Shown: one piece after another, positions 1,282 through 12,424 of the stretch
Layout: each line of letters begins with the position of its first letter
Position numbering within the stretch: position 1 is the stretch's first letter
From: Escherichia coli O127:H6 str. E2348/69
GTDB lineage: Bacteria > Pseudomonadota > Gammaproteobacteria > Enterobacterales > Enterobacteriaceae
DNA length: 64,000 nt
Assembly: GCF_000026545.1 (NCBI RefSeq)
Contig: NC_011601.1
Reading direction: 5' to 3' (one strand)
Notes under the pieces: model-generated
What the model saw: the letters and a program-made list of their open reading frames with translations, nothing else
Database searches by the model: none
Told to the model about the DNA's origin: nothing
Translations under genes and position numbers: made by a program

Positions 1282-1300
1282 TTGTACCCAAGACTGTACC
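1282..1300 (+). repeat. attL core: 19-bp direct repeat TTGTACCCAAGACTGTACC (identical copy at 12406-12424)
   Basis: Exact 19/19 match at both ends of the integrase-bearing element. Confidence 0.75.
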
Positions 1301-1360
1301 TTTAATAATTTATCCAATTCATTTTGGGTACAAAATGATAGTCAATATTCAGGTGAAACT

Positions 1361-2620
1361 ATGGCAAAGCTGACAGATATCCAAATCAAGTCATGGATTA
1401 AGGCAGGAGAACGCTTCGAGGGGCGCTCTGACGGCAACGGGCTATACCTTCGCTATCGAGTGGGGGATAAAGTGCCTGTATGGCGTTTTCGATATCAGTT
1501 CGCTGGGAAATCACGGGTAATGCTTATTGGATCTTATAGCGAAATATCCCTTTCCAAAGCACGGGAAATAGCCAAGGAATTATCCGCACGTGTAGCCCTG
1601 GGCTTCGATGTCGCCGGGGAAAAGAAAGCGCGAAAAGCGGCTGCTATAGAAAAGATGGAGCGGGAGAAAAACGCGCTTCGCGTGTCAGAGCTAGCAACCG
1701 AGTATTTCGAACGGCAGATTTTGGGACGCTGGAAACATCCCGATCTTCTGCGCCGGAGAATCGATAAGGATATCAACCCACATATTGGCAACATGAAGAT
1801 AGAGGACGTAAAACCCCGTCATATTGATGCGATGCTACAGAGCGTTGTTGATCGTGGCGCTCCAACCGTAGCTAATGACGTTCTGCGCTGGACTAAACGC
1901 ATATTCGATTATGCTATCAAGCGTCATGCACTGGAATTAAACCCAGCTGGAGCATTTGATCTGTCAGACGCTGGCGGGCAGGAAAGTAGCCGTATGCGCT
2001 GGCTGACCCGTGAAGAACTTATACGTTTTTTCCAAGCTATGCGCACTGCAAAAGGATTCAGCCGCGAGAACGAGCTGACCATGAAGCTAATCCTCTGCCT
2101 GTGTTGTCGCAAAATGGAGCTGTGCGGTGCTCAGTGGGATGAATTCGACCTTGATGAAGCAGTGTGGCATCTACCAGCAGAACGCGTTAAAAACGGCGAC
2201 GCTATTGATATACCACTACCTCCACCTGCGGTTGGTTGGTTGAGAGAGCTTCGCACTATCGCGGGCAGTGGGAGTAAATGGGTTCTCCCCGCGCGGAAGA
2301 TGCAACACCGCATGATTCCCCACATTCAGGAAAGCACACTCCCAGTGGCGCTGGCAAAAGTACGCCGCGAAATGCCAGAAGTACCAAACTTCACAATTCA
2401 CGATTTCAGGCGTACCGCCCGCACCCATTTAGCGGCGTTGGGTGTCGATCCCGTAGTCGCAGAACGTTGCCTGAATCACCGCATTAAAGGCGTTGAGGGT
2501 ATCTACAACCGCCACCAGTACTTTGAAGAACGACGGGCAGCCCTGGAACTGTGGGCGGGGCTTCTGGTTTCGCTTGAACGAGGGGAAAACTACAATGTTA
2601 TTCCTTTATCTAAAATATAA
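1361..2620 (+). CDS. int: Tyrosine recombinase, P4-type integrase (419 aa)
   Basis: N-terminus MAKLTDIQIKSWIKAGERFEGRSDGNGLYLRYRVGDKVPVWRFRYQFAGK typical of P4-family arm-binding domain; C-terminal HDFRRT...HRIKGVEGIYNRHQY catalytic motif; start set at ATG 1361 with RBS aggtgaa. Confidence 0.9.
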   Translation: MAKLTDIQIKSWIKAGERFEGRSDGNGLYLRYRVGDKVPVWRFRYQFAGKSRVMLIGSYSEISLSKAREIAKELSARVALGFDVAGEKKARKAAAIEKMEREKNALRVSELATEYFERQILGRWKHPDLLRRRIDKDINPHIGNMKIEDVKPRHIDAMLQSVVDRGAPTVANDVLRWTKRIFDYAIKRHALELNPAGAFDLSDAGGQESSRMRWLTREELIRFFQAMRTAKGFSRENELTMKLILCLCCRKMELCGAQWDEFDLDEAVWHLPAERVKNGDAIDIPLPPPAVGWLRELRTIAGSGSKWVLPARKMQHRMIPHIQESTLPVALAKVRREMPEVPNFTIHDFRRTARTHLAALGVDPVVAERCLNHRIKGVEGIYNRHQYFEERRAALELWAGLLVSLERGENYNVIPLSKI

Positions 2621-2635
2621 AAGTTTTGTTTGAAG

Positions 2636-2740
2636 GTATTCACCCTATTCACCTTTTTAATTAACTTCATGATTTTAAATAATAAAAAAGGGTGAATACT
2701 TACAGTAAAACTAATCACCTTAGTATTCACCTGTTCACCT
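2636..2740. repeat. Cluster of five GGTGAAYA-type motifs (TATTCACC x3, GGTGAATA, TGTTCACC) downstream of int
   Basis: Read directly from sequence; a similar cluster lies at 12150-12265 at the other end of the element. Confidence 0.45.
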
Positions 2741-3123
2741 TCTAAAGCTGCTGTGGCTGCTCCCCTTGCCCGAAAACACGCCAGCCACCAGCGTTAAAAA
2801 AAACTACAAAAATCATCATCGTACAGATCTGTACGATGACGCCAGCACTCACCCTACAAAACAACCTAACTTATTGATTTCAAAAGTAGAGAAAATCTGC
2901 TTTATGCCACTAGCTCGCACCCGTCCCCAAAAAGAAAAAGCCCGCGCTGGAGACGCACGGGCTTTTGGGTACCGATAACCATGTTTGGAATCAACTCATT
3001 GAGTTCTGACCTCAATTTGCATGTTATCACAAGAAAAACACATTGTAATAATTGCAACAACGAATATCATCATTGCATATAATGAAACATAAATATCCGA
3101 TAGAACATACTGAGGTCTGACCG

Positions 3124-3675
3124 ATGCAAGATATTACAAACATCGCAGTGACTGGCGAAGATGGCGTGGTGACGTATGCCGACGGCAGTAAAGAGGAGTT
3201 CCAGTGCAGCGGAACCGTTGCGACCATCATTGCAAGTCTTGCAACGACACTCGAGAAAGAACGCAAAATGCGCATCGCCACCGGCGACCGCCTGCGCCGC
3301 ATGTACACCCGCGACAGTGATATGATTTCCCGCGGTTTGAATGGCACGTCTGCTACTTCCACGGCACCGACAGCAATGAATGCTGAGTTCATGCGTCTGG
3401 TACGTGCCGTAGCGCCGAAATACGATTCAGCACTGCCCGACGCCGACCCGCGCATCGTTGCGCTCGATGTGCTGCGCTACGCCCCTGCTGAGGCGTTCAG
3501 CGCCGTACACCCTACCCCAATGTCAGAAATCCAGCTGGATCAGGCTATCGATATACTCGAGCAGGTTGGCGACTACATGAAAGCAAACAATATCGCTCCG
3601 AAAATAATTTCTACAGGAGACGCAATCCGCAGCATCAATGCTGACAACGCCACCTTCTGGGGCAAAAAACACTAA
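3124..3675 (+). CDS. Hypothetical protein, 183 aa (first gene of cargo operon)
   Basis: ORF of 183 aa, same strand and closely spaced with three downstream ORFs; no motif recognised. Confidence 0.6.
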   Translation: MQDITNIAVTGEDGVVTYADGSKEEFQCSGTVATIIASLATTLEKERKMRIATGDRLRRMYTRDSDMISRGLNGTSATSTAPTAMNAEFMRLVRAVAPKYDSALPDADPRIVALDVLRYAPAEAFSAVHPTPMSEIQLDQAIDILEQVGDYMKANNIAPKIISTGDAIRSINADNATFWGKKH

Positions 3676-3688
3676 AGAGATATGAAGC

Positions 3689-3877
3689 ATGTCTATCTAT
3701 GACCCGAAATTAGCCGCAGGCAACCCACAGCGCGCCCACCGCCCAATGCTGACCCGTCAGGATCTTGAAACGGCAAAGGCACGCAATAACTTCGATCGCC
3801 AGAGTCGCAACCTGCAGCAACTCAACGAATCAAATGCACGGTTCTGGAGTGAACAGAATGAGAAAGCCAAACGTTAA
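3689..3877 (+). CDS. Hypothetical small protein, 62 aa
   Basis: Small ORF 14 bp after previous stop; basic/charged composition; no recognised domain. Confidence 0.4.
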   Translation: MSIYDPKLAAGNPQRAHRPMLTRQDLETAKARNNFDRQSRNLQQLNESNARFWSEQNEKAKR

Positions 3878-4034
3878 GCCGGTCCTGCTGTCCGCCGAGC
3901 AGATGCAGGCCATACGCAACATTCAGGAACGTGAACGCCAGCGCTCCAATCTCGGCGTCGCTCCCACCGTTCACCAGATTGCCCGCGGCCTCATGGCTAA
4001 GGCTCTGGCCTCACTGGCAAGCGAGGGCGCGTAA
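3858..4034 (+). CDS. Hypothetical small protein, 58 aa (start taken at ATG 3858)
   Basis: RBS ggag 9 nt upstream of ATG 3858; its stop overlaps the start of the next gene (TAATG). Confidence 0.4.
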   Translation: MRKPNVKPVLLSAEQMQAIRNIQERERQRSNLGVAPTVHQIARGLMAKALASLASEGA

Positions 4035-4765
4035 TGGGCGCCATTCACCAGATATATGAGCAGGAAATGTTCTATAACTGGATAGGCGATGGTAAACGAT
4101 GTGTAGCATTCCACGAAGCGGGCCATGCAGTAGCCGCATGGCTTATTCGCTTAGATATGCAGGTTATCGCCATTATGGATGAATCCGGCTACGTTGCTGG
4201 CGAACATGTACATGAAGCCCAGTGTTTGGGCGTTGTTAAACACGGCATAATCCACAGCCACGATCTCAGGCGTTTGCGGGAGAGTAAATCTGGTGTAGTT
4301 GGGCACGATGGCAAAGTTATCCCTTTCATACGCTACTACGCGGAAGGTATAAAGCGCGATGCAACAAAGGCCGCTTTTGTAGCCCTCGCTGGACCAGTAA
4401 GCGAAGCCATTTACGAAAATAACGAAATTTTCAATATAAAGTATTCACTCCCTCACCGCTATGACATGGCTAACGTAAATGACATGCTCGATTTAATATG
4501 TGCCACGGATAAGCGAATTAACAGGAAGTTAATGCTTTCTAAACTTGTTGAAAAGACCAAATTCCTCATGACTCAATACTGGCCGGAAGTAGGAAAAATA
4601 GCGCATTTGCTTGAGCGGGATAACATTGTTAATGGCCGCGATGTTAGCTCGCTAATCGGCCTCAACGTCATTGACCGGGCAACGCCATTTTTGGTATCTG
4701 ACTTGAGCAGTACATTTGCTCATCTCCCGTACTCGTCCCTGCCTCCGAATGAATTAGCAACTTGA
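4034..4765 (+). CDS. Standalone FtsH-like (M41-type) zinc metallopeptidase domain protein, 243 aa, no AAA+ module
   Basis: VAFHEAGHAVAAWL closely matches the FtsH zinc-binding HEAGH motif; later ALAGPVSEAIYEN resembles the FtsH third-ligand region; no Walker A/B present. Confidence 0.55.
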   Translation: MGAIHQIYEQEMFYNWIGDGKRCVAFHEAGHAVAAWLIRLDMQVIAIMDESGYVAGEHVHEAQCLGVVKHGIIHSHDLRRLRESKSGVVGHDGKVIPFIRYYAEGIKRDATKAAFVALAGPVSEAIYENNEIFNIKYSLPHRYDMANVNDMLDLICATDKRINRKLMLSKLVEKTKFLMTQYWPEVGKIAHLLERDNIVNGRDVSSLIGLNVIDRATPFLVSDLSSTFAHLPYSSLPPNELAT

Positions 4766-4812
4766 AGACAGTAAAGTAGCCATGCATTTAACACGCATGG
4801 CTATGTGAACAT

Positions 4813-6036
4813 TTAAGAATTAGAGCGCTTAGGCGATCGCGTAAATTGCACTAAAGCCCCTTTATGATCGTTAGCCTGCACATCACGATGCTCAACCAAC
4901 ATAGATTTTAATTTTGCCAGATGCACAACAGCAGCCTTCTTGCCAGTCAGGTACCCCTCGGGCAAACCAGCAATCATTTCCACATCAATAGCAGATAAAC
5001 CTGCGAATGCAGCAAGCCGTTCAACTGAAATGATTCCAGACGATGCCAGCAATTCAATAGTACGTTTCAACAAACGTGGTTTTTCAGGCTCACGATAATC
5101 ATCTCCCGGCTCTGATTTCGCTCCCCAACGTGCTGAACGACGCTTATAAAGATTTTGTTTCTCTTCTTCCGTAATAATATGCAGCACATGTAAACGCATG
5201 ATACTTGCCGCAACGGAAATACCATAGCGTTGTTTAATTAAAAGCAAGCTATCTAATGTTACCGGGGTCCTAATTTCTTCGGCAAATGTCTCAGCAGGAA
5301 GCAGCAGTGCTCCCGCAAATTTATGAGCCTGACTTTCCTTCAGCTTATAACGTTCGGCTTCGAGTTCGTTGCCAACATAGCGGTGAAGGATCAGATGACC
5401 AATTTCGTGAGCAAGGTCAAATCTGCTACGAAAAGCATTACCTTTATCTGAAGAGAGGAGAACAAAAGGAACACCTAAAGTCTCACTCCAGGCAGAAAGC
5501 CCTTCAATCTGCGCAACGCCTGTTTCTTCTCTAATAACGATAATACCATTACTCTCTGCGGCTAAAGCAAGATCCGGTATTTCCTTTGTACCAAGATTCC
5601 AAAGAGCACGGCACTCATTAGCAGCGTCTTCAATATCTGCATCACTAATTTCATCAATGTTTGTAAAGCTACGACGCGGTAGTTTTAGCTCCGGCAGATC
5701 TACAAACTCAGTCAGCTTAGTAACTAACTCATTAGCCCAATGGATTCGAGTTTCTAACATTGCTCGTGCAGCTACATGAGCTGATGCATTGCTTCTGAAC
5801 AGAGGCTTTGACATCCCCTTCAACAGAGGGCGCGTAAACCATTCAGGTGTAACATTTACGACAGTGGCCAGACGTTCTAAAGCCTCAGACTCTGGAGCCT
5901 GTTGACCGGAACGCCATTTGCTAATGGTTGCTGGTGATACACCCACCATAGTAGCTAATTGAGTTTGTGATAGCCGCCGGGCGGCTAGTACCTGTGCTAA
6001 CCTGCCCGGTTGAAATTCGGCGACGCCTCGGCTCAT
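4813..6036 (-). CDS. XRE-family HTH fused to ImmA/IrrE (M78-type) metallopeptidase, with ~150-aa C-terminal extension (407 aa)
   Basis: N-terminal LSQTQLATMVGVSPATISKWRSG helix-turn-helix; FDLAHEIGHLILHRY HExxH motif typical of ImmA/IrrE peptidases. Confidence 0.75.
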   Translation of the reverse strand: MSRGVAEFQPGRLAQVLAARRLSQTQLATMVGVSPATISKWRSGQQAPESEALERLATVVNVTPEWFTRPLLKGMSKPLFRSNASAHVAARAMLETRIHWANELVTKLTEFVDLPELKLPRRSFTNIDEISDADIEDAANECRALWNLGTKEIPDLALAAESNGIIVIREETGVAQIEGLSAWSETLGVPFVLLSSDKGNAFRSRFDLAHEIGHLILHRYVGNELEAERYKLKESQAHKFAGALLLPAETFAEEIRTPVTLDSLLLIKQRYGISVAASIMRLHVLHIITEEEKQNLYKRRSARWGAKSEPGDDYREPEKPRLLKRTIELLASSGIISVERLAAFAGLSAIDVEMIAGLPEGYLTGKKAAVVHLAKLKSMLVEHRDVQANDHKGALVQFTRSPKRSNS

Positions 6037-6680
6037 ACATTATCTTCCTCGGTTCCATCTTTTCTGATAATGCCCCTTTTGAGCCCAGGGAATGCATTAT
6101 CTTCTTGGGACGGAACTACATCATATCGGGTTAAAAAAAGTTCAAGTGGCTCATGAAAAACCCAGCGCTTCCCATCAGAACTTGGTACAACAAGCTCTAT
6201 AGACATCGGAGCTTCAGGCTGAATCTGCAACGAACCGGAAAAACGGCATACTACGAACAGTGTAGCTTTTGGCACATCAGAACCATCGGAGAATAAATCC
6301 GGTTGCACCATTTTTTCCACAAACACGTTCTCAGAAATGAGTTCTTGCTTACGTTTGCTACGGAATAATCTCTTCCACTGGTTATCATTGTAGCTTTCAC
6401 GAACAATCGTGAATATACCACTATGGCCTTCTACAATACGGTTACCACGCAGCTTTCCAGGATTACAACCGTTGGCCTCAAACACCTCATAAATAGTTTC
6501 ATTCAGGTTTAAATGACGATCATAACCAAGCGCGGTCGATCTGTGATCTAGCTTCTTCTTTTGAGCATAATCGTAAGAACGCTTTGATGCCGCGTAAATC
6601 GCGTCAGAAAGGGCCATGAAGAGTTGTTTTGAAACATTCTGAACGATGAGATCTGCCACTTTGGATTTTTTCACGACCAT
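6033..6680 (-). CDS. Hypothetical protein, 215 aa, translationally coupled upstream partner of the HTH-ImmA gene
   Basis: ORF of 215 aa; its stop overlaps the downstream start (ATGA at 6033-6036); no recognised motif. Confidence 0.6.
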   Translation of the reverse strand: MVVKKSKVADLIVQNVSKQLFMALSDAIYAASKRSYDYAQKKKLDHRSTALGYDRHLNLNETIYEVFEANGCNPGKLRGNRIVEGHSGIFTIVRESYNDNQWKRLFRSKRKQELISENVFVEKMVQPDLFSDGSDVPKATLFVVCRFSGSLQIQPEAPMSIELVVPSSDGKRWVFHEPLELFLTRYDVVPSQEDNAFPGLKRGIIRKDGTEEDNV

Positions 6681-6683
6681 TTC

Positions 6684-6702
6684 CTATCACTGTCACTGAT
6701 AG
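6684..6702. promoter_or_regulatory. Inverted repeat CTATCA-N7-TGATAG overlapping the RBS/start region of the 215-aa gene (candidate operator)
   Basis: Read directly from sequence immediately adjacent to the start codon at 6680. Confidence 0.25.
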
Positions 6703-7209
6703 CCGTGATTTTATATCAGTATTTTTTCGTGTGTCCATAACGCAATCAATTATTTTTTCCTTTGTCAGCAAGAATTATATAAAAAGCACTATCATGACAG
6801 GATTTGGGCCACTAACCTTTCACAGACTCTTGAAGTCCTAGAAAAAAGCAATGGCACAAGGTGTCCTTGCCGGGAGAAAAATCATCTGGCTACCAGCAAC
6901 CTTATAGATTCCAGATCAACGTAATATCAAAGTAAAACGTCCATTTCCGGTACCATATTTGGTCATTACGACGGGGGAAACTTATACCCACTGCTGCCCC
7001 ATCGTCAGCGCCGACAGGGACCTATGCCGCAAGGTATAAGGCAAAATTGGCATTTTCGCTATTCCCCCTGCCCGTATTTTTTGGCTTACTGGAATTTCTC
7101 TATCTAACACAATGAACTTGAGGCTATTCCGACAGGGAGAAAAGCGATCTACGCCTGACCGCCTGCCTCAGCAATCATCCAGGCAAGTACGTGTGTAAGG
7201 CTAACGCGA

Positions 7210-7890
7210 ATGAGTGATTTTTATTCCCCTCTACCAAGCTATGATCTTGTCCGGGCAGCGGAGATGCTGACTGATAAGGGGGCAAATTGTACCGGTAACG
7301 ATTTATTGGAACTATGGAACCAAGGCGTTATCGAGTTGTGTTTTTCTCTGCCGGACTACATTGCTTGTGAAGATGTTAATTTTCCCGGGCATGGTCACAG
7401 CATTTTGTTATCCGTGGATCCGATTAGCTTCAACCTTTTCTGGCTAAATGTTGATTACCCACCGAACTTAAATGCTAACTTTTCTGTGAAAGAATATGGC
7501 TCAGATAGTGAATTCCATGAGCAGTCCCTATGGATACCAACAGAACCGCACTACAACACTCACCATGATAACGGGGAAGGGCTTTGCGAAGCGTTAAGGA
7601 ATACTTATGGCCGGGAAAATTTACGAATACCAGGTGTCGAATTGCAAAAGGTTTGGCGCTTTTTGATCGGTCAGCCTTATGAAAAAAAGCCAACGCCTGA
7701 GCGTATCACCGCTAAGCAATGCCGCTTTATCGTCGCATTACTCAGATCGTATAACCTGACTGACGATGATTTTAAGGGGAGCATTAGGGACCTGAGAATT
7801 AAGATATCTAACCGGATCCCTTCAATCGGTGATCCTGAAATCGATGATAATACCCTTACTGACTGGCTGAAGAAGGGAGGGGTTCGGTAG
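7210..7890 (+). CDS. Hypothetical protein, 226 aa
   Basis: Isolated ORF upstream of alpA, preceded by ~530-bp AT-rich intergenic region; no recognised motif. Confidence 0.55.
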   Translation: MSDFYSPLPSYDLVRAAEMLTDKGANCTGNDLLELWNQGVIELCFSLPDYIACEDVNFPGHGHSILLSVDPISFNLFWLNVDYPPNLNANFSVKEYGSDSEFHEQSLWIPTEPHYNTHHDNGEGLCEALRNTYGRENLRIPGVELQKVWRFLIGQPYEKKPTPERITAKQCRFIVALLRSYNLTDDDFKGSIRDLRIKISNRIPSIGDPEIDDNTLTDWLKKGGVR

Positions 7891-7992
7891 CTGAGTTTTC
7901 ATAACTCCGATGAGTTTTCAATAACTCCCCCACCCGTAACCACCTACCCCGTAGCCTTGCGATTACCTTCTCACTCAATAGCAGGTAATCGC

Positions 7993-8205
7993 ATGAAATC
8001 GCAAACTTTCACCTTTCCTACCAATGGCAACGCACGAGCCAAACAAGTGGCGCACTATCTTGGAGTGCATATCAGCACCGTATGGCGCTATGCAAAACGT
8101 CCTGATTTTCCAAAACCCCACCAGTTAACCGACGGCGTGACCGTCTTTGACGCCGCAGCTATTCGCCAATGGAACAAGCAAAAAACCGGGGGTGAGAATG
8201 CTTAA
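7993..8205 (+). CDS. alpA: AlpA-family phage transcriptional regulator / excisionase-like DNA-binding protein (70 aa)
   Basis: KQVAHYLGVHISTVWRYAKRPDFPKPHQLTDGVTVFDAAAIRQW is the AlpA-type HTH pattern; start set at ATG 7993. Confidence 0.8.
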   Translation: MKSQTFTFPTNGNARAKQVAHYLGVHISTVWRYAKRPDFPKPHQLTDGVTVFDAAAIRQWNKQKTGGENA

Positions 8206-8259
8206 CGCGACCGTGAGCACACCCTGCACGACAGCCGTTCGATCTCCATTGTTGGCGGG

Positions 8260-8454
8260 TCAGGCTTTCGGCTCAATACCCAGCCGCTGGAGTTCTTTGC
8301 GCCCCAAGGTTTTCATCCAATTAGCTAAACTCATACCTGCATCTCGTGCGGCGGCCTCGAATTGCTCTTTCAATTCTGGGGCGATCCTCACTTGGAAAGC
8401 TGGTGCCTTTCCCCTGCCTTTGGGCTGTTTATCACGCTGTATTACTGTTGACAT
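8260..8454 (-). CDS. Small ribbon-helix-helix-like protein (64 aa), opposite strand to the replication operon
   Basis: FQVRIAPELKEQFEAAARDAGMSLANWMKTLGRK resembles RHH (Arc/CopG-type) strand-helix-helix; start chosen at internal Met. Confidence 0.4.
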   Translation of the reverse strand: MSTVIQRDKQPKGRGKAPAFQVRIAPELKEQFEAAARDAGMSLANWMKTLGRKELQRLGIEPKA

Positions 8455-8588
8455 GTATGTACCTATTAAACTAAGATTCAAATCAATAGGTACGCACCTT
8501 AACATGTTAAGGTCAGAAAAGACAACGCCCCGTAGTGCTCGCAACACATACGGGGCGTCTAACCAACAACGTTACGGAGACTAACGCT

Positions 8589-8789
8589 ATGGCTAAGCCG
8601 CAGTGTACCCAAACTCACCCCAAATATCAGTATCGTTTTATGGCGCTCGATCGCGCTGACCGCCAGGCAAAACCCTGCAAAATCATTGTTGAGGCCACCA
8701 GCGAGCATGAAGCACGTAAGGTGTTGGCACCTCACTACATCCTGTCACTGTCCGCCGTTTTGCCAGTTCAGGAGGTGAGCCATGTTTAA
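8589..8789 (+). CDS. Hypothetical small protein (66 aa), satellite replication-module operon
   Basis: RBS ggaga upstream of ATG 8589; overlaps next ORF. Confidence 0.5.
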   Translation: MAKPQCTQTHPKYQYRFMALDRADRQAKPCKIIVEATSEHEARKVLAPHYILSLSAVLPVQEVSHV

Positions 8790-8976
8790 TGTCATTGTCA
8801 CGGTCACCTATCACTTTTCGGGAACGATCCGTCGTTTTGCTATTCCGGAACGTTTCAATAATCGTGAGCTCGCAGAGAAAGCGGCGCAGCAGTTAACCCA
8901 TACCAGCTATCTGGATGATGGAGTGAGCAGAATTGTGACCCACGCGGCGGAAGTAGTGGAGGTGCGCCATGTATGA
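8782..8976 (+). CDS. Hypothetical small protein (64 aa)
   Basis: Strong RBS caggaggtg; overlapping start/stop with neighbours. Confidence 0.55.
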   Translation: MFNVIVTVTYHFSGTIRRFAIPERFNNRELAEKAAQQLTHTSYLDDGVSRIVTHAAEVVEVRHV

Positions 8977-9157
8977 CGCCTACCTGAACCCAAAGGACGC
9001 ACTCCGTCCGATCGCCGTTGCACTCGAGGCTGCGCAGTTTATCGCGCTTGACCCGGAGAATACCGATTTAGCCCATGAGCTGATCGCCTGGGCACTTGAA
9101 ACAGCCGCGCGTGCCTCAGCTGCGCAACGTAACACCCCGGAGGTGGACAATGCTTAA
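8969..9157 (+). CDS. Hypothetical small protein (62 aa)
   Basis: RBS ggaggtg upstream; translationally coupled. Confidence 0.5.
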   Translation: MYDAYLNPKDALRPIAVALEAAQFIALDPENTDLAHELIAWALETAARASAAQRNTPEVDNA

Positions 9158-9458
9158 TCTCAATACATGGAATCTTTTCACGCTGCCGCTGAACGGTGGC
9201 GCAGCTGAGACAGCGCCGGACGATCTGCGTCTGCTGGCCGCTGTGGGGGACGAGGCTCGCAACAACTACCTGCGCGGTGTAAGCGCCATCGGCAATCTGA
9301 TCTTCTGGGCATGTGATAACCCCAACTACACCGACCATCAAGCTGACCTGCCAGCGCTGGGCGCATTCCTGAAACATACCGCTGATATGGCGCGCGCTGC
9401 CGAATTCATGGCAGGACATCTGGACTCACTGGCTGACGGCAAAGAGGGAGGCAAATAA
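9150..9458 (+). CDS. Hypothetical protein (102 aa)
   Basis: RBS ggaggtg before ATG 9150; stop overlaps next start. Confidence 0.55.
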   Translation: MLNLNTWNLFTLPLNGGAAETAPDDLRLLAAVGDEARNNYLRGVSAIGNLIFWACDNPNYTDHQADLPALGAFLKHTADMARAAEFMAGHLDSLADGKEGGK

Positions 9459-9679
9459 TGCCACGCAAACATCGCTCATCAAGCAACCTGATCAAATTAA
9501 TGGAACGCCAGAAAGGTATAGGGCGCGACGATATCCAGATCGCAGATAATCGCCCTACATTCATGCCGTACGAGCCGAACGGAACCTACGCTACAAACCG
9601 CCATACCCGCCGTATGCTACGCAAGCTCCACGGCATCCAGGCAAAAAGAATGTGTGATCTGAAAGGAGGTCAGAAATGA
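9458..9679 (+). CDS. Hypothetical small basic protein (73 aa)
   Basis: RBS gagggagg; stop overlaps primase start (ATGA). Confidence 0.5.
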   Translation: MPRKHRSSSNLIKLMERQKGIGRDDIQIADNRPTFMPYEPNGTYATNRHTRRMLRKLHGIQAKRMCDLKGGQK

Positions 9680-12090
9680 GTGGATTCGATCACCTGATGG
9701 AGCAGGGGCAGAAACGCACCCCTGCTCGTTTTACTGCAAATAGCTTTTCTGACCTGTGCAACGCTATTCTATCGCATCGTGTGCAAATTTCCATCACACA
9801 GGAAATGACGGATGAAGAACGGCGCAAAGAAAAGCAGAAACTGTACTGGTTCTCGGCAACTACCCAGCAGGACGGGCAGCGACGTAAACCCGAAAACATG
9901 GCACCGTGTGCTTTCGGTATGCTGGACATTGACGGCAGCACTCCCGGTGCAATCACAGCACTTGTACAGGTGTTCCGGCGATACTCAATGCTGGTGTACC
10001 AGACGGCCAGCTATACGACGGATGAACCTCGTCTGCGTATTGTGTGCGAGCTTTCCCGAGCGGTTGAATCTGACTACCGCCGAGCGACAGGCGAATCCAT
10101 AGAAACTTTGTTGATGCAGGAGGCTGGATTCTCATTCGCCAGCCTGGCGGATAAGAAAGCACGCTGGGAGAACGGCAGCGATTATGTTGTCTTTGACCGC
10201 AATGTATACGGCGCTCAAAGCTATTGCTACTGTCCACACACTGGAGCGAAAGCCCAGAATTACGCGGGCGCGGTAATCGACGTAGGGGCGTTACCGGAAC
10301 CCGCCCAGCCACCAGCGAAGGCGGCCAAAAGCAAGGCAAAGAAACAGCGCCAGCGTGACGCCGCGGCGGTAATAGATGCTGATTTTGACGATCTGAGCGC
10401 CGGACCGGATAACTTCCTTATCGCCGACCTGCGCAGCGCACTCTGGTTTCCCTCCATGCTGCAAAAGGCATGGGACAATGGGGCGTGGATTGAGCAGGGC
10501 TACCGCCTTGCATCTCTCAAAGGCACCGATTTTGAGGACGACGCGCGGCAACTGTGGGTCGAGTGGTCATTGACCGCAGCGGATGGCTGGCCTGATGAAG
10601 AACTTGATGAAGTCGCGGCACAACGCTGGAATGGTCTCGCCCCTGACAAAACCAGCTATAAAGCTATTTTTACTGATGCTCAGGCGCAGGGGTGGAATAA
10701 TCCGGGCAAATGGCGAGCAAAGGCCGCGTACATTGAGAAAATGGCCCCCAGCACACGCGGTGAACTGCTGGCGCAATATTACGGCAACGTATGCCTGAAA
10801 GCTGATGGCAACATGGTTTATCACTATACCGGGCAGGTGTGGGAGCACATCGCCGATGCCGAGTTGCGCCGCCAGCTTTCGCAGATTTTCAAAGATAACG
10901 GGGTCCCCTTTACACCGTACGAGGTTAAAAGCGCGATTGAGGCTATGGGAATGCTTCTGCCTTTAATGGGAGAAACTCCTCGTAACCTGATTGGCTTTGC
11001 CAACGGCGTTTATGATCTCGAGGCGCAGCGATTCCGCCCCCACTGCCCAGACGATTGGCTGACCAGCCATAACGGCGTTGAATACACGCAGCCGGTTAAA
11101 GGCGAAACCCTGAAAAACAATGCCCCAAACTTCTGGCGCTGGCTGCATCATTCCGCAGGGGGCGACTTCGACAAAATGGAGAGAATCAAAGCCGCTCTGT
11201 ATATGGTGCTGGCAAACCGCTACGACTGGCAACTGTTCATCGAGGTTACCGGTGCTGGTGGCAGTGGTAAAAGCGTGTTCACGGGTATTGCACGTATGCT
11301 GACGGGCGAACTACACGCCACCAGCGGCACAATGGAGGACATGGACACCGCGCGCGAACGCGCATCTTTTGTCGGCAAAAGCCTGATCACCCTACCCGAC
11401 CAAGCAACATATACGGGTTCCGGGCCGGGTATCAAGGCTATAACGGGCGGCGACGTGGTAAGGATCGACCCAAAGCACGAAAAGCCATTCCATACGGTTA
11501 TTCGCGCCGTTGTCATCGCAACAAACAACGAACCTATGCGTTTCACCGAACGACAAGGCGGGATATCGCGGCGCCGGGTTATTTTCCCGTTTAACCATGA
11601 AGTGCCGGAGGCGGAACGTGATCCCCATCTGCTCGATAAAATTAAAGCCGAACTGCCGGTAATCGTCCGTGGTCTGCTGATTGACTTCGAACAGCCAGGC
11701 AAAGCCAAATCGCTACTTATCGCGCAGCGTGATTCAGCGGAAGCGCTGCAGGTGAAGAACGATAACGACCCGATGTATGGCTTTTGCTCTTACCTGCTAG
11801 GTTTGCCGAATCCCGAGGGCATGTACATGGGCGATGGGCGCATGGCGCGAGAGCCACGCATCTACCTCTATCATGCTTATCTGGCCTATCTGGAAGCCTA
11901 CGGTTATCAGAGAACCCCCACCCTACCGAAGTTCAGCGGAGATTTACGGGACACGCTCAAAGCCTTTGGTATTACTCTGGACAGTAAAAAGAGTAAAAAG
12001 GGCAAAAGATATAACGTCAATTTGTCTGACAGGGCACAAGAATGGCTGGGAGAAGACGAACTCTCAGCTGTGCCCGACACATTGCAGTAA
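9676..12090 (+). CDS. P4 alpha-like bifunctional DNA primase/helicase (804 aa)
   Basis: Walker A GAGGSGKS in the C-terminal half; size and architecture typical of P4-alpha-type replication proteins; RBS aaggagg. Confidence 0.85.
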   Translation: MSGFDHLMEQGQKRTPARFTANSFSDLCNAILSHRVQISITQEMTDEERRKEKQKLYWFSATTQQDGQRRKPENMAPCAFGMLDIDGSTPGAITALVQVFRRYSMLVYQTASYTTDEPRLRIVCELSRAVESDYRRATGESIETLLMQEAGFSFASLADKKARWENGSDYVVFDRNVYGAQSYCYCPHTGAKAQNYAGAVIDVGALPEPAQPPAKAAKSKAKKQRQRDAAAVIDADFDDLSAGPDNFLIADLRSALWFPSMLQKAWDNGAWIEQGYRLASLKGTDFEDDARQLWVEWSLTAADGWPDEELDEVAAQRWNGLAPDKTSYKAIFTDAQAQGWNNPGKWRAKAAYIEKMAPSTRGELLAQYYGNVCLKADGNMVYHYTGQVWEHIADAELRRQLSQIFKDNGVPFTPYEVKSAIEAMGMLLPLMGETPRNLIGFANGVYDLEAQRFRPHCPDDWLTSHNGVEYTQPVKGETLKNNAPNFWRWLHHSAGGDFDKMERIKAALYMVLANRYDWQLFIEVTGAGGSGKSVFTGIARMLTGELHATSGTMEDMDTARERASFVGKSLITLPDQATYTGSGPGIKAITGGDVVRIDPKHEKPFHTVIRAVVIATNNEPMRFTERQGGISRRRVIFPFNHEVPEAERDPHLLDKIKAELPVIVRGLLIDFEQPGKAKSLLIAQRDSAEALQVKNDNDPMYGFCSYLLGLPNPEGMYMGDGRMAREPRIYLYHAYLAYLEAYGYQRTPTLPKFSGDLRDTLKAFGITLDSKKSKKGKRYNVNLSDRAQEWLGEDELSAVPDTLQ

Positions 12091-12109
12091 CTTGTAAAAA
12101 ATCACCAAG

Positions 12110-12132
12110 AACCCCGTAAATCGGGGTTTTTG
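12110..12132 (+). terminator. Rho-independent terminator after the primase gene
   Basis: Hairpin aaccccg-taaa-tcggggtt followed by ttttt. Confidence 0.65.
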
Positions 12133-12149
12133 TCTATTTATTAGTCTGA

Positions 12150-12265
12150 AAGGGTGAACAGGTGCGCATACCTTAACAAAGCTGTTCACTCTAATAATTT
12201 TCTTTAATATCAGTACACTACCCGCAATAAGTGAACAGATGGACGGGGTGAACACTTCACACCTA
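12150..12265. repeat. Cluster of GGTGAACA-type motifs (four to five copies, both orientations) near the attR end
   Basis: Read from sequence; mirrors the motif cluster at 2636-2740. Confidence 0.4.
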
Positions 12266-12405
12266 TAGCGCGAAATATTTTAATATTTGCAGTTGAATTG
12301 CAATCCTTGAAAACAGAAACGCGTAGCAAAACGTAGAGTGCTGAAAAAATTTTGTTGGGGAGCAGTTCAAACTGCATGAGCAATTTTCAAGCACTCCTCT
12401 TTGTC

Positions 12406-12424
12406 TTGTACCCAAGACTGTACC
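12406..12424 (+). repeat. attR core: second copy of 19-bp direct repeat TTGTACCCAAGACTGTACC
   Basis: Exact match to 1282-1300. Confidence 0.75.

What the first reader, a model, noticed from the sequence alone, without database searches (positions are those of the whole stretch)
4813..6680. Two-gene cargo cassette: unknown 215-aa protein coupled to an XRE-HTH/ImmA-peptidase fusion with a long uncharacterised C-terminal extension (candidate toxin or anti-phage module)
The two minus-strand genes overlap by 4 bp (ATGA), so they are co-translated. The downstream product combines an N-terminal XRE helix-turn-helix with an ImmA/IrrE-type HExxH peptidase core (HEIGH) and then ~150 residues I cannot assign. 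The upstream 215-aa protein has no motif I recognise. HTH-ImmA regulators usually partner with toxic or phage-responsive effectors, and the cassette sits in the variable region of a P4-like element between int and alpA, where such satellites are known to carry anti-phage cargo. The architecture is reminiscent of HTH plus metallopeptidase two-gene defence candidates, but I cannot confirm family membership without a search.
Basis: partly seen in the sequence, partly recalled or inferred. Interest (0 to 1): 0.8.

Follow-up and report, generated by a model that had tools for sequence, protein, structure and literature searches.

The report
RosmerTA toxin–antitoxin defence cassette, untested toxin
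The two overlapping genes are a member of the already-described RosmerTA toxin–antitoxin anti-phage family, sitting in the exact island slot where sister E. coli strains carry the experimentally validated RosmerTA system, but paired with a toxin family that has never been tested and whose activity is unknown.

Summary
Two minus-strand genes, rmrT (6680–6033, 215 aa) and rmrA (6036–4813, 407 aa), overlap by ATGA. RmrA has an XRE HTH and an M78 peptidase core with an intact HEIGH motif.

PADLOC calls the pair RmrA (E 3.5e-125) and RmrT (E 8e-16), which together make RosmerTA (Millman 2022).

The "unassigned" C-terminus is typical of the family. It is a helical region with an HTH-like three-helix bundle, followed by a disordered tail.

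The window is EPEC E2348/69. The cassette lies in the variable slot of an 11-kb int/alpA/primase island between yicC and dinD. All 17 complete E. coli genomes with this island carry a RosmerTA pair there:
- 7 carry this cassette.
- 10 carry a pair identical (100% checked in DEC5B, ≥99.9% DNA identity in the rest) to the experimentally verified RosmerTA.

The toxin is not detectably homologous to the verified one (HHalign probability 1.4%). It is soluble, belongs to a small family that always sits next to an RmrA, and has a confident predicted fold with no solved relative.

A conserved promoter with "CGAAA" boxes suggests RmrA represses its own operon.

Verdict: a new, untested member of a known kind. 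Interest is moderate.

The parts
6033..6680 (-). rmrT: predicted toxin, 215 aa (213 aa if the GTG at 6674 is the true start). Soluble, basic, alpha/beta protein of unknown activity.
   Evidence: ORF. PADLOC RmrT PDLC03937, E 8.1e-16, full length. No Pfam, NCBIfam or PHROG hit. 98 clusters at 50% identity among 1.84 billion representatives. AF2 pLDDT 92.9. No TM segment, pI 8.4.
4813..6036 (-). rmrA: predicted antitoxin/repressor, 407 aa. Layout: XRE HTH (10-68), linker with invariant F80-R81, M78 Zn-peptidase core (HEIGH 210-214), helical C-terminal region (290-356), disordered tail (368-407).
6033..6036 (-). ATGA stop/start overlap (translational coupling of rmrT and rmrA).
   Evidence: Sequence. 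The same 4-bp overlap occurs in L004, L008, L011 and L012.
6708..6737 (-). Promoter-like site TGGACA-18-TAAAAT. A conserved 'CGAAAA' box (6729-6724) lies inside the spacer and is the candidate RmrA operator box 1.
   Evidence: Consensus scan, 10 of 12 matches. The -35/box/-10 arrangement is conserved in loci whose proteins are 20-45% identical.
6684..6702 (-). Near-palindrome CTATCAGTGaCAGTGATAG between the -10 and the start codon, overlapping the SD. It is a candidate second operator in this clade and occupies the position of box 2 in distant loci.
   Evidence: Inverted repeat I2. The core ATCAGTGACAGTGATAGG is identical in E. coli, Salmonella, S. plymuthica and viral contigs while the flanks diverge. 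RNA folding is not significant, z -1.1.
4777..4803 (-). Hairpin after the rmrA stop codon, lying between convergent genes. Probable terminator and the left end of the mobile module.
   Evidence: Terminator-like scan, 11-bp stem. Homology to the Salmonella cassette begins at 4772.
4772..6737 (-). The mobile RosmerTA module as a unit (hairpin to -35).
   Evidence: This 1,966-bp block is 91% identical to the Salmonella island cassette, which has different neighbours on both sides.
4694..7948 (.). Variable hotspot of the island. In sister E. coli islands it is replaced by a 4.2-kb segment carrying the verified RosmerTA.
   Evidence: blastn of window against L018/L019: 98.6% identity up to 4693, 96.8% from 7949. 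Only 7118-7221 (78%) is retained inside.
1282..12424 (.). Host element: an 11.1-kb integrative island between yicC and dinD. It encodes integrase, AlpA, Arc-like and Icd-like proteins and a P4-family primase, and is bounded by perfect 19-bp direct repeats TTGTACCCAAGACTGTACC.
   Evidence: Direct repeat D3. Annotation. PHROGs. No tRNA.

Best explanation
The cassette is a RosmerTA-type two-gene toxin-antitoxin / abortive-infection defence module carried as exchangeable cargo in the hotspot of a small integrative island.

Proposed mechanism:
1. One promoter drives rmrT and then the translationally coupled rmrA.
2. RmrA binds operator boxes that flank the -10 element through its XRE helix-turn-helix. 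This keeps transcription of the toxin gene low.
3. RmrA is the essential antidote.
4. Host ClpXP probably helps keep residual toxin harmless.
5. On infection by a sensitive phage, RmrA control is lost. By analogy with ImmA/ImmR, IrrE/DdrO and CapP/CapH, this would happen through M78-peptidase-dependent cleavage, possibly self-cleavage at the invariant F80-R81 linker.
6. RmrT then accumulates and arrests or kills the cell before the phage completes its cycle.

RmrT is a soluble cytoplasmic effector, not a membrane toxin. Its target is unknown. A nucleic-acid target is my best guess, held with low confidence.

Shown here: family membership of both proteins, conserved pairing, operon anatomy, hotspot allelism with the verified system, and the conserved promoter boxes.
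Taken from the literature: antitoxin essentiality, the anti-phage phenotype of other members, and ClpX/ClpP dependence.
Inferred: the repression mechanism, the trigger, the cleavage site and the toxin target.
For: Family membership:
- RmrA matches PDLC03951 at 3.5e-125 and RmrT matches PDLC03937 at 8.1e-16, both over full length.
- RmrA is 27% identical over 330 aa to the verified E. coli OLC-716 RmrA (sequences from Millman 2022 Table S2).

Literature on the family:
- RmrA is the Zn-peptidase antitoxin, delta-rmrA could not be transformed, and the system defends against phage.
- Diverse unrelated RmrTs pair with RmrA, and 58% of pairs are toxin-first (Ernits 2023).

Conserved synteny:
- Every RmrT homolog with readable downstream DNA is followed by an HTH_3 + Peptidase_M78 protein of 404-410 aa.

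Hotspot allelism:
- The island backbone occurs in 17 E. coli genomes. Seven carry this cassette and 10 carry the verified RosmerTA: protein identity is 100% where checked (DEC5B), and DNA identity is 99.9% or more in the others. It sits in the same slot and orientation.

Module mobility:
- Block 4772-6737 is shared with a Salmonella island that has different neighbours. The pair also occurs outside any island in S. plymuthica.

Regulation:
- The -35 / CGAAA box / -10 arrangement is conserved. In 6 of 6 distant loci a second box lies exactly 31 bp downstream, and 0 of 2,000 shuffles reach this.

Catalytic competence and fold:
- HEIGH is intact and the residues around it are invariant.
- The fold is closest to CapP, IrrE and PrpR.

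ClpXP link:
- rmrA is essential, and clpX is essential only in RosmerTA-carrying Pectobacteriaceae.
- clpP is essential in E. coli E101 because of a TA pair of the same configuration.
Against: - No experiment exists for this cassette or for any member of this toxin family.
- The toxin shows no detectable homology to the verified RmrT (BLASTP E 0.095; HHalign probability 1.4%). Function is therefore transferred through the antitoxin and the genomic context only.
- The RmrT match to its PADLOC model is moderate (56 bits).
- RmrA scores 159 bits against NCBIfam 'spr1629 family repressor/antitoxin', below the 335-bit cutoff.
- The operator pattern was derived post hoc from the same sequences it was tested on. 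The window's own clade has only box 1 plus a different palindrome.
- TA function and anti-phage function cannot be separated in silico.
Confidence: 0.78

Rival explanations
1. A pure addiction (post-segregational killing) module. On this view the pair is a genuine toxin-antitoxin system whose selected role is to stabilise the island in the chromosome, with no protective effect against phage.
For: - rmrA-type antitoxins are essential where present, which is what an addiction module needs.
- Every one of the 17 copies of this island keeps one RosmerTA allele, consistent with a maintenance role.
- No RmrT homolog was found in GenBank phage genomes.
Against: - The allelic partner in the same slot is an experimentally verified anti-phage system.
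- Another RosmerTA with an unrelated toxin also defends against phage.
- An alternation of unrelated toxins at a single hotspot is the diversifying pattern typical of defence cargo (Rousset 2022 abstract).
- The module also occurs away from any island.
- The two roles are not mutually exclusive.
Confidence: 0.13
2. The island's own ImmR/ImmA-like induction switch. On this view RmrA is the master repressor-protease that senses phage or SOS signals to trigger island excision and replication, and the 215-aa protein is a non-toxic accessory or antirepressor.
For: - Domain content is the same as ImmR+ImmA, DdrO+IrrE and CapH+CapP, all of which are regulatory switches.
- The cassette lies between int and alpA next to the int-alpA RNA motif.
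- PHROG labels the RmrA family 'transcriptional regulator'.
Against: - The cassette is swapped wholesale for a different pair, with only 27% RmrA identity and a different promoter, in otherwise 97-99% identical islands. A core regulator would co-evolve with its island operators.
- The conserved operator boxes are at the cassette's own promoter.
- The module occurs in a Salmonella island at a different position relative to its neighbours, and outside islands altogether.
- Deletion of homologous rmrA is lethal, not inducing.
Confidence: 0.05
3. A decayed or silent remnant. On this view the genes are intact ORFs but are no longer expressed or functional.
For: - The cassette is rare, present in 7 of 5,426 complete genomes.
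- There is no direct expression evidence.
Against: - Both ORFs are full length relative to family profiles.
- HEIGH and all family-invariant residues are present.
- The promoter, SD sequences and coupling overlap are intact.
- DNA identity is 99.8-100% across the seven genomes, which include at least two serotypes (O127:H6 and O99:H6).
Confidence: 0.04

Closest known systems
RosmerTA (RmrT/RmrA) of E. coli OLC-716, verified by Millman et al. 2022
   Same: - Two-gene operon with the toxin first and an HTH + M78 Zn-peptidase antitoxin second.
- The RmrA proteins are homologous (27% identity over 330 aa, E 3e-26).
- Both occupy the same hotspot, orientation and island backbone in E. coli.
   Different: - The toxins are not detectably related and hit different PADLOC models: PDLC03937 here, PDLC03935 for OLC-716.
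- The genes overlap by 4 bp here and are separated by 9 nt there.
- The promoter and operator sequences are unrelated.
- RmrA is 407 aa here and 370 aa there.
- This cassette is untested.
RosmerTA of Gordonia phage Kita (RmrT-D5/RmrA-D25), Ernits et al. 2023
   Same: [quoted passage not shown] That system has demonstrated TA behaviour and narrow anti-phage defence.
   Different: The Kita toxin has predicted TM regions and depolarises the membrane. The toxin here is hydrophilic with no TM segment (maximum 19-residue hydropathy 0.86) and has a globular alpha/beta fold.
spr1629/spr1630 of S. pneumoniae and E101_02644/02645 of E. coli E101 (ClpX/ClpP-dependent TA pairs)
   Same: - RmrA hits NCBIfam NF052239 'spr1629 family repressor/antitoxin' (E 1.4e-46).
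- The configuration is the same: a toxin of unknown function plus a downstream antidote.
- These pairs make ClpX or ClpP essential.
   Different: - The score is below the equivalog cutoff (159 bits against 335).
- ClpXP dependence has not been tested for this cassette.
- I could not compare the toxin sequences here.
ImmR/ImmA (ICEBs1), DdrO/IrrE (Deinococcus), CapH/CapP (CBASS regulators)
   Same: - An XRE HTH repressor works with an M78/COG2856 metallopeptidase that inactivates it on a stress signal.
   Different: - HTH and peptidase are fused in one chain here.
- No beta-strand is predicted after residue 195, so the GAF-like sensor domain of IrrE/CapP (known from my own knowledge of those structures) is absent. 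A helical region and a disordered tail take its place.
- The controlled gene is a toxin in the same operon.
Defence hotspots of P4-like satellites (Rousset et al. 2022)
   Same: A small integrative element with a P4-type integrase, AlpA and a P4-family primase carries alternative defence cassettes at a fixed variable site. The concept is taken from the abstract listed.
   Different: - No sid, psu, delta or capsid-related genes were detected.
- The element integrates between yicC and dinD rather than at a tRNA.
- Whether it is helper-phage-mobilised at all is untested.

Membership tests
RosmerTA (PADLOC/DefenseFinder definition) | An RmrA component: an antitoxin with a Zn-peptidase (M78/ImmA) domain, usually with an N-terminal HTH. 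| tested here: met
   PDLC03951 E 3.5e-125 over residues 1-399. Pfam HTH_3 and Peptidase_M78, HEIGH at 210-214. Homologous to the verified RmrA.
RosmerTA (PADLOC/DefenseFinder definition) | An adjacent RmrT component that matches one of the RmrT toxin models. | tested here: met
   PDLC03937 E 8.1e-16, residues 5-213 against profile positions 4-220 of 221. Second hit PDLC03942 at 2.4e-07. The score is moderate and PADLOC's own per-model thresholds were not available.
RosmerTA (PADLOC/DefenseFinder definition) | The two genes are adjacent, on the same strand, in one operon. | tested here: met
   4-bp overlap, a single upstream promoter-like site and a downstream hairpin. The same arrangement is seen in all homologous loci.
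RosmerTA (functional definition, Millman 2022) | RmrT is toxic and RmrA neutralises it. | not testable with these tools
   Only indirect evidence exists. delta-rmrA could not be transformed for the verified system. rmrA is essential in three Pectobacteriaceae.
RosmerTA (functional definition, Millman 2022) | The system confers resistance to phage. | not testable with these tools
   Shown for the OLC-716 and Kita systems but not for this toxin family.
RosmerTA, verified toxin lineage (OLC-716 RmrT) | The toxin is homologous to the experimentally verified RmrT. | tested here: not met
   BLASTP E 0.095. HHalign of a 60-sequence profile against a 23-sequence profile gives probability 1.4%.
ImmR/ImmA - DdrO/IrrE - CapH/CapP regulatory pairs | The HTH repressor and the M78 protease are separate polypeptides. 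| tested here: not met
   Both domains lie in one 407-aa chain.
ImmR/ImmA - DdrO/IrrE - CapH/CapP regulatory pairs | A signal-dependent cleavage of the HTH repressor by the protease. | not testable with these tools
   Only a candidate site can be named: the invariant F80-R81 in the HTH-peptidase linker.
P4-like satellite | P4-type integrase, AlpA-type regulator and P4 alpha-type primase. | tested here: met
   RefSeq and PHROG annotation. Pfam D5_N/Pox_D5 on the 95% identical Salmonella ortholog.
P4-like satellite | Capsid-size and helper-exploitation genes (sid, psu, delta) and cos. | tested here: not met
   No PHROG, NCBIfam or PADLOC hit of that kind for any island ORF. The remaining small ORFs have no annotation, and cos was not searched.
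PD-(D/E)xK nuclease superfamily (for RmrT) | Restriction-endonuclease-like alpha-beta-beta-beta-alpha-beta core with a conserved D...(D/E)xK catalytic motif. | tested here: inconclusive

The most novel reading that the evidence does not exclude
RmrT of this family is a new kind of cytoplasmic abortive-infection effector. Its fold has no solved relative and is shared by more than 200 uncharacterised proteobacterial proteins. It would be controlled by an unusual three-layer circuit:

1. RmrA represses the operon through two direct 'CGAAAC' boxes exactly three helical turns apart.
2. RmrA cleaves itself at the invariant F80-R81 linker when it senses a phage cue.
3. The toxin's conserved but disordered C-terminal motif (Q-x-D-x-A-x-P-x-L-K) acts as the handle by which ClpXP or the RmrA peptidase keeps basal toxin harmless.

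The natural pair of alleles in one island slot would then be a ready-made system for learning how one antitoxin scaffold controls unrelated toxins.
Probability: 0.15. Interest if true: 0.6.

Novelty: new member of a known kind. Interest (0 to 1): 0.35.

Why it matters
The finding is mainly a correct classification. A 'hypothetical protein' and an 'HTH domain-containing protein' in the reference EPEC strain E2348/69 form a RosmerTA defence/TA module.

Three things give it some value beyond that:

1. Natural allelic swap. The same slot in one island backbone holds either the experimentally verified RosmerTA or this one, which has an unrelated toxin. Two strains or constructs that differ only in the cassette would be a clean comparison of phage specificity and of how a shared antitoxin scaffold controls different toxins.

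2. An uncharacterised toxin family. The family is small, confidently folded, soluble and biochemically unknown. The mechanism of RosmerTA toxins other than the membrane-depolarising Kita toxin remains open.

3. Concrete, cheap tests. The conserved promoter and operator boxes and the invariant F-R linker give specific hypotheses for how RmrA works.

None of this changes the current picture of bacterial immunity.

Tried and rejected
1. Homology of this RmrT to the verified RmrT. Rejected: BLASTP E 0.095 and HHalign probability 1.4%.

3. RmrT as a membrane toxin like Kita RmrT-D5. Rejected: no hydrophobic segment.

4. A GAF-like sensor domain in the RmrA C-terminus, as in IrrE/CapP. Rejected: the region is all-helical and then disordered.

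5. The 5'-UTR palindrome as an RNA hairpin that sequesters the SD. Not supported: z -1.1.

6. Sequence search of PDB with the RmrT profile. Nothing meaningful; best E 0.46, to designed proteins.

7. Looking for E2348/69 or O127 in Millman's supplementary tables. Absent.

8. Looking for E2348/69 Tn-seq data in an Enterobacteriaceae TraDIS compendium. The strain is not included.

9. A peptide-pattern scan with the 60-sequence alignment.

10. tblastn of RmrT against GenBank phage genomes. No match.

11. The operator boxes in the verified allele's promoter. Absent.

12. A tRNA as the integration site. None found.
Full report
**Observation**

The sequence shows ...GTA TGA overlapping ATG AGC..., a 4-bp ATGA stop/start overlap. 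A GAGGAAG ribosome-binding site lies 9 nt before the downstream ATG.

Pfam places an XRE-type HTH_3 at residues 14-67 and Peptidase_M78 (the IrrE/ImmA core) at 160-282. HEIGH is at 210-214, and nothing is assigned after about residue 285. The 215-aa protein has no Pfam, NCBIfam or PHROG match.

One refinement concerns the start codon. The annotated ATG at 6680 lies 1 nt after the AGGA of the Shine-Dalgarno. The in-frame GTG at 6674 lies 7 nt after it. Many homologs are called as 213 aa starting MKKSK. The GTG is probably the real start.

**What it is**

Against PADLOC-DB, the 407-aa protein matches RmrA models over its whole length. The best is PDLC03951 at E 3.5e-125, residues 1-399 against profile positions 1-397 of 400. 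The 215-aa protein matches RmrT model PDLC03937 at E 8.1e-16, residues 5-213 against positions 4-220 of 221.

RmrT/RmrA is the RosmerTA system of Millman et al. 2022. [quoted passage not shown] Ernits et al. 2023 showed that the ImmA-type RmrA antitoxin is a hub that pairs with many unrelated toxins, toxin-first in 58% of cases. [quoted passage not shown]

I recovered the sequences of the verified E. coli OLC-716 system from Millman's Table S2.
- RmrA: the window protein is 27% identical to the verified RmrA over 330 residues (E 3e-26).
- RmrT: the toxins are unrelated by BLASTP (E 0.095). They are also unrelated by profile-profile comparison of a 60-sequence and a 23-sequence alignment (HHalign probability 1.4%). 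They hit different PADLOC toxin models.

The pair is thus a RosmerTA by its antitoxin, its architecture and a toxin model hit. Its toxin lineage has never been tested.

**The antitoxin**

RmrA belongs to a large family. More than 900 clusters reach E ≤ 1e-10 in a capped search, many of them in Pseudomonas at 62-67% identity. A 22-sequence alignment that includes distant partners and the verified RmrA shows conservation along the whole chain:
- an invariant F80-R81 in the HTH-peptidase linker (LFRSNASAH);
- the HExxH region;
- 'RSARWG.KSEPGDD.R.PE.PRLLKRT' at 300-325;
- 'GLS..D.E....GLP' at 346-359;
- a terminal 'V.PF.R' motif.

The AlphaFold model has pLDDT 85.8 and shows:
- HTH at 10-68;
- a long helix at 88-108;
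- the alpha/beta peptidase core;
- an all-helical region at 290-356 that ends in a three-helix HTH-like bundle;
- a disordered tail at 368-407.

No beta-strand is predicted after residue 195. The GAF-like sensor domain that I recall from IrrE and CapP structures is therefore absent.

**The toxin**

A profile search of 1.84 billion cluster representatives finds only 98 clusters at E ≤ 1e-3. Nearly all are single-domain proteins of 205-225 aa.

The AlphaFold model is confident (pLDDT 92.9, pTM 0.85). It has an N-terminal three-helix bundle (7-69), an alpha/beta domain (84-187) and a C-terminal coil.

The residues conserved across the family are N118 (100%), R55, G52, D194, L200, Y186, R94, K201, H56, N60, E61 and D128. 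They do not form a PD-(D/E)xK signature. I treat the nuclease resemblance as a weak lead.

The protein is hydrophilic. GRAVY is -0.45, the maximum 19-residue hydropathy is 0.86 and pI is 8.4. It is therefore not a membrane toxin like the Kita RmrT.

One curious feature is the motif Q192-x-D194-x-A-x-P-x-L200-K201. It is among the best-conserved parts of the family yet lies in predicted coil with falling pLDDT. This looks like a linear interaction motif. A degron or a peptidase- or antitoxin-binding tail is a reasonable guess, but I could not test it.

**Conserved pairing**

Every RmrT homolog for which downstream DNA could be read is followed directly by an HTH_3 + Peptidase_M78 protein of 404-410 aa, often with the same 4-bp overlap. 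The loci are:
- metagenomic contigs L003 and L004;
- genome L007, where RmrT identity is about 20-25%;
- Salmonella L008-L010;
- Serratia plymuthica L011;
- S. fonticola L012;
- five IMG/VR contigs, L013-L017.

RmrA is consistently better conserved than RmrT. In L003, for example, RmrA is 64% identical and RmrT 34%.

**Operon anatomy and regulation**

A sigma-70-like promoter (TGGACA-18-TAAAAT, 6737..6708) precedes rmrT. A hairpin (4803..4777) follows rmrA.

I compared the upstream regions of loci whose proteins are only 20-45% identical. The surrounding DNA cannot be aligned, but three elements are conserved: the -35, a 'CGAAA' box inside the spacer, and the -10.

In all six distant loci a second box of the same type lies exactly 31 bp downstream, measured start to start. 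That is three helical turns, and it places the two boxes on either side of the -10. None of 2,000 shuffles reached six loci. I derived the pattern from these same sequences, so that number overstates the significance.

The window's own clade keeps box 1 (6729-6724) but carries a different element in place of box 2. The core ATCAGTGACAGTGATAGG overlaps the SD. It is identical in E. coli, Salmonella, S. plymuthica and viral contigs while the flanks diverge. As RNA it does not fold significantly (z -1.1), so a DNA operator is more likely. The verified OLC-716 allele has neither element.

My inference is that the RmrA HTH autoregulates the operon by occluding the promoter.

**Genomic context**

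The window is 100% identical to EPEC O127:H6 E2348/69. RefSeq labels the two genes 'hypothetical protein' and 'helix-turn-helix domain-containing protein'.

The cassette sits in an 11.1-kb island between yicC and dinD. The island is bounded by perfect 19-bp direct repeats at 1282-1300 and 12406-12424, and no tRNA is present. It encodes a P4-type integrase, AlpA, an Arc-like protein, an Icd-like protein and a P4-family primase. I found no sid, psu, delta or capsid genes. Rfam places the 'int-alpA RNA' motif at 7117-7184.

The integrase (≥99% identity) is present in 17 of 5,426 complete E. coli genomes, and so is the full-length primase (≥95% identity).
- Seven carry this cassette.
- Ten carry a different two-gene cassette in the same slot and orientation.

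In DEC5B, the proteins of that second cassette are 100% identical to the experimentally verified OLC-716 RmrT and RmrA. The other nine genomes match it at 99.9% or more in DNA.

The two island types are collinear at 98.6% identity up to 4693 and at 96.8% from 7949. Between those points only the ~105-bp int-alpA RNA region is retained, at 78%.

A Salmonella island of the same family shares precisely 4772-6737 at 91%. That block runs from the hairpin to the -35 and has different neighbours, which defines the mobile module. In S. fonticola the pair sits next to the integrase in a hotspot that also holds P22 gp7/gp20/gp16-like genes. In S. plymuthica it lies outside any such island.

This is the pattern expected of exchangeable defence cargo. 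It argues against the pair being the island's own regulator.

**Mechanism**

The literature adds two points.
- rmrA is essential in three Pectobacteriaceae, and clpX is essential only in the strains that carry RosmerTA.
- A TA pair of the same configuration makes clpP essential in E. coli E101, and a T46S change in the toxin suppresses this.

This is the reverse of the classical type II scheme, in which the protease destroys the antitoxin. It suggests that ClpXP helps remove or restrain the toxin.

My best model is as follows. RmrA represses the operon and is the antidote. ClpXP clears leaked toxin. Infection by a sensitive phage inactivates RmrA. By analogy with ImmA/ImmR, IrrE/DdrO and CapP/CapH, this would occur through peptidase-dependent cleavage, with the invariant F80-R81 linker as a candidate site. 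RmrT then accumulates and stops the cell.

The family assignment, pairing, anatomy and hotspot allelism are shown here. Essentiality and defence come from the literature on other members. The trigger, the cleavage site, the ClpXP role for this cassette and the toxin target are all inferred.

**Rivals**

- A pure addiction module cannot be excluded in silico and is compatible with every copy of the island keeping one allele. The verified anti-phage activity of the allelic partner makes a defence role more likely.
- An ImmR/ImmA-like island switch is unlikely. The cassette is swapped wholesale between near-identical islands, its conserved operators are at its own promoter, and it occurs without the island.
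- A decayed remnant is unlikely because every functional feature is intact.

**Novelty and score**

This is a new, untested member of a known kind. The family is named, present in PADLOC, and experimentally supported through other members.

What is new here:
- the allelic relationship to the verified system in one island slot;
- the demonstration that the toxin lineage is unrelated to the verified one and has a confident fold without solved relatives;
- the conserved operator design.

Interest is moderate-low (0.35).

Noticed in passing
window 7117-7184 (+): Rfam 'int-alpA RNA' motif (RF02996, 39.4 bits against a gathering score of 35.8) in the divergent intergenic region between rmrT and the 226-aa ORF that precedes alpA. 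It is the only sequence inside the swapped hotspot that is retained (78%) in the sister islands.
   Followed up: partly
window 4034-4765 (+): A 243-aa ORF convergent with rmrA carries an FHEAGHAVAAW motif. Its only hits are marginal ones to the HExxH region of Peptidase_M41/M50 (E 0.0015 and 0.017). It is conserved in the E. coli and Salmonella islands (82%). Its last ~24 codons fall inside the swapped region, so its C-terminus differs between island alleles (243 aa here, 223 aa there). Function unknown.
   Followed up: partly
window 1282-1300 and 12406-12424: Perfect 19-bp direct repeat TTGTACCCAAGACTGTACC bracketing the island between yicC and dinD. These are probably attL/attR. No tRNA gene is involved.
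   Followed up: partly
window 3124-4034 and 7210-7890 (+): Several island ORFs (183, 62, 58/89 and 226 aa) have no hit in PADLOC, NCBIfam or PHROGs. The 226-aa ORF upstream of alpA has diverged homologs in the Salmonella, S. fonticola and viral-contig islands (38-65%). In the sister E. coli islands an unrelated 272-aa ORF replaces it.
   Followed up: partly
L018 15918-16976 (E. coli O55:H7 DEC5B): The sister island's hotspot holds an extra 352-aa hypothetical protein next to the verified RosmerTA. It is absent from the window and could be further cargo.
   Followed up: no
L012 3033-8029 (Serratia fonticola): In the S. fonticola version of the island, the hotspot next to the RosmerTA pair contains genes with Pfam hits to P22 ejection proteins gp7, gp20 (Inj_translocase) and gp16. 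This is unexpected cargo for a small integrative island.
   Followed up: no
L011 11841-13124 (Serratia plymuthica): Here the RosmerTA pair lies outside any int/alpA island. It is about 1 kb from a 427-aa RelA_SpoT-domain protein, possibly a toxSAS-type neighbour.
   Followed up: no
L001 1-764 (E2348/69, about 2.3 kb upstream of the window start): A 'reverse transcriptase family protein' gene lies just beyond pyrE. It may be a retron or another RT-based defence element near this island.
   Followed up: no
window 6674-6680 (-): Start-codon ambiguity for rmrT. The annotated ATG (6680) is 1 nt from the SD. The in-frame GTG (6674) is 7 nt from it and gives the 213-aa form called in many homologs.
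   Followed up: yes
window 14001-64000: The remaining ~50 kb of the window was not examined.
   Followed up: no
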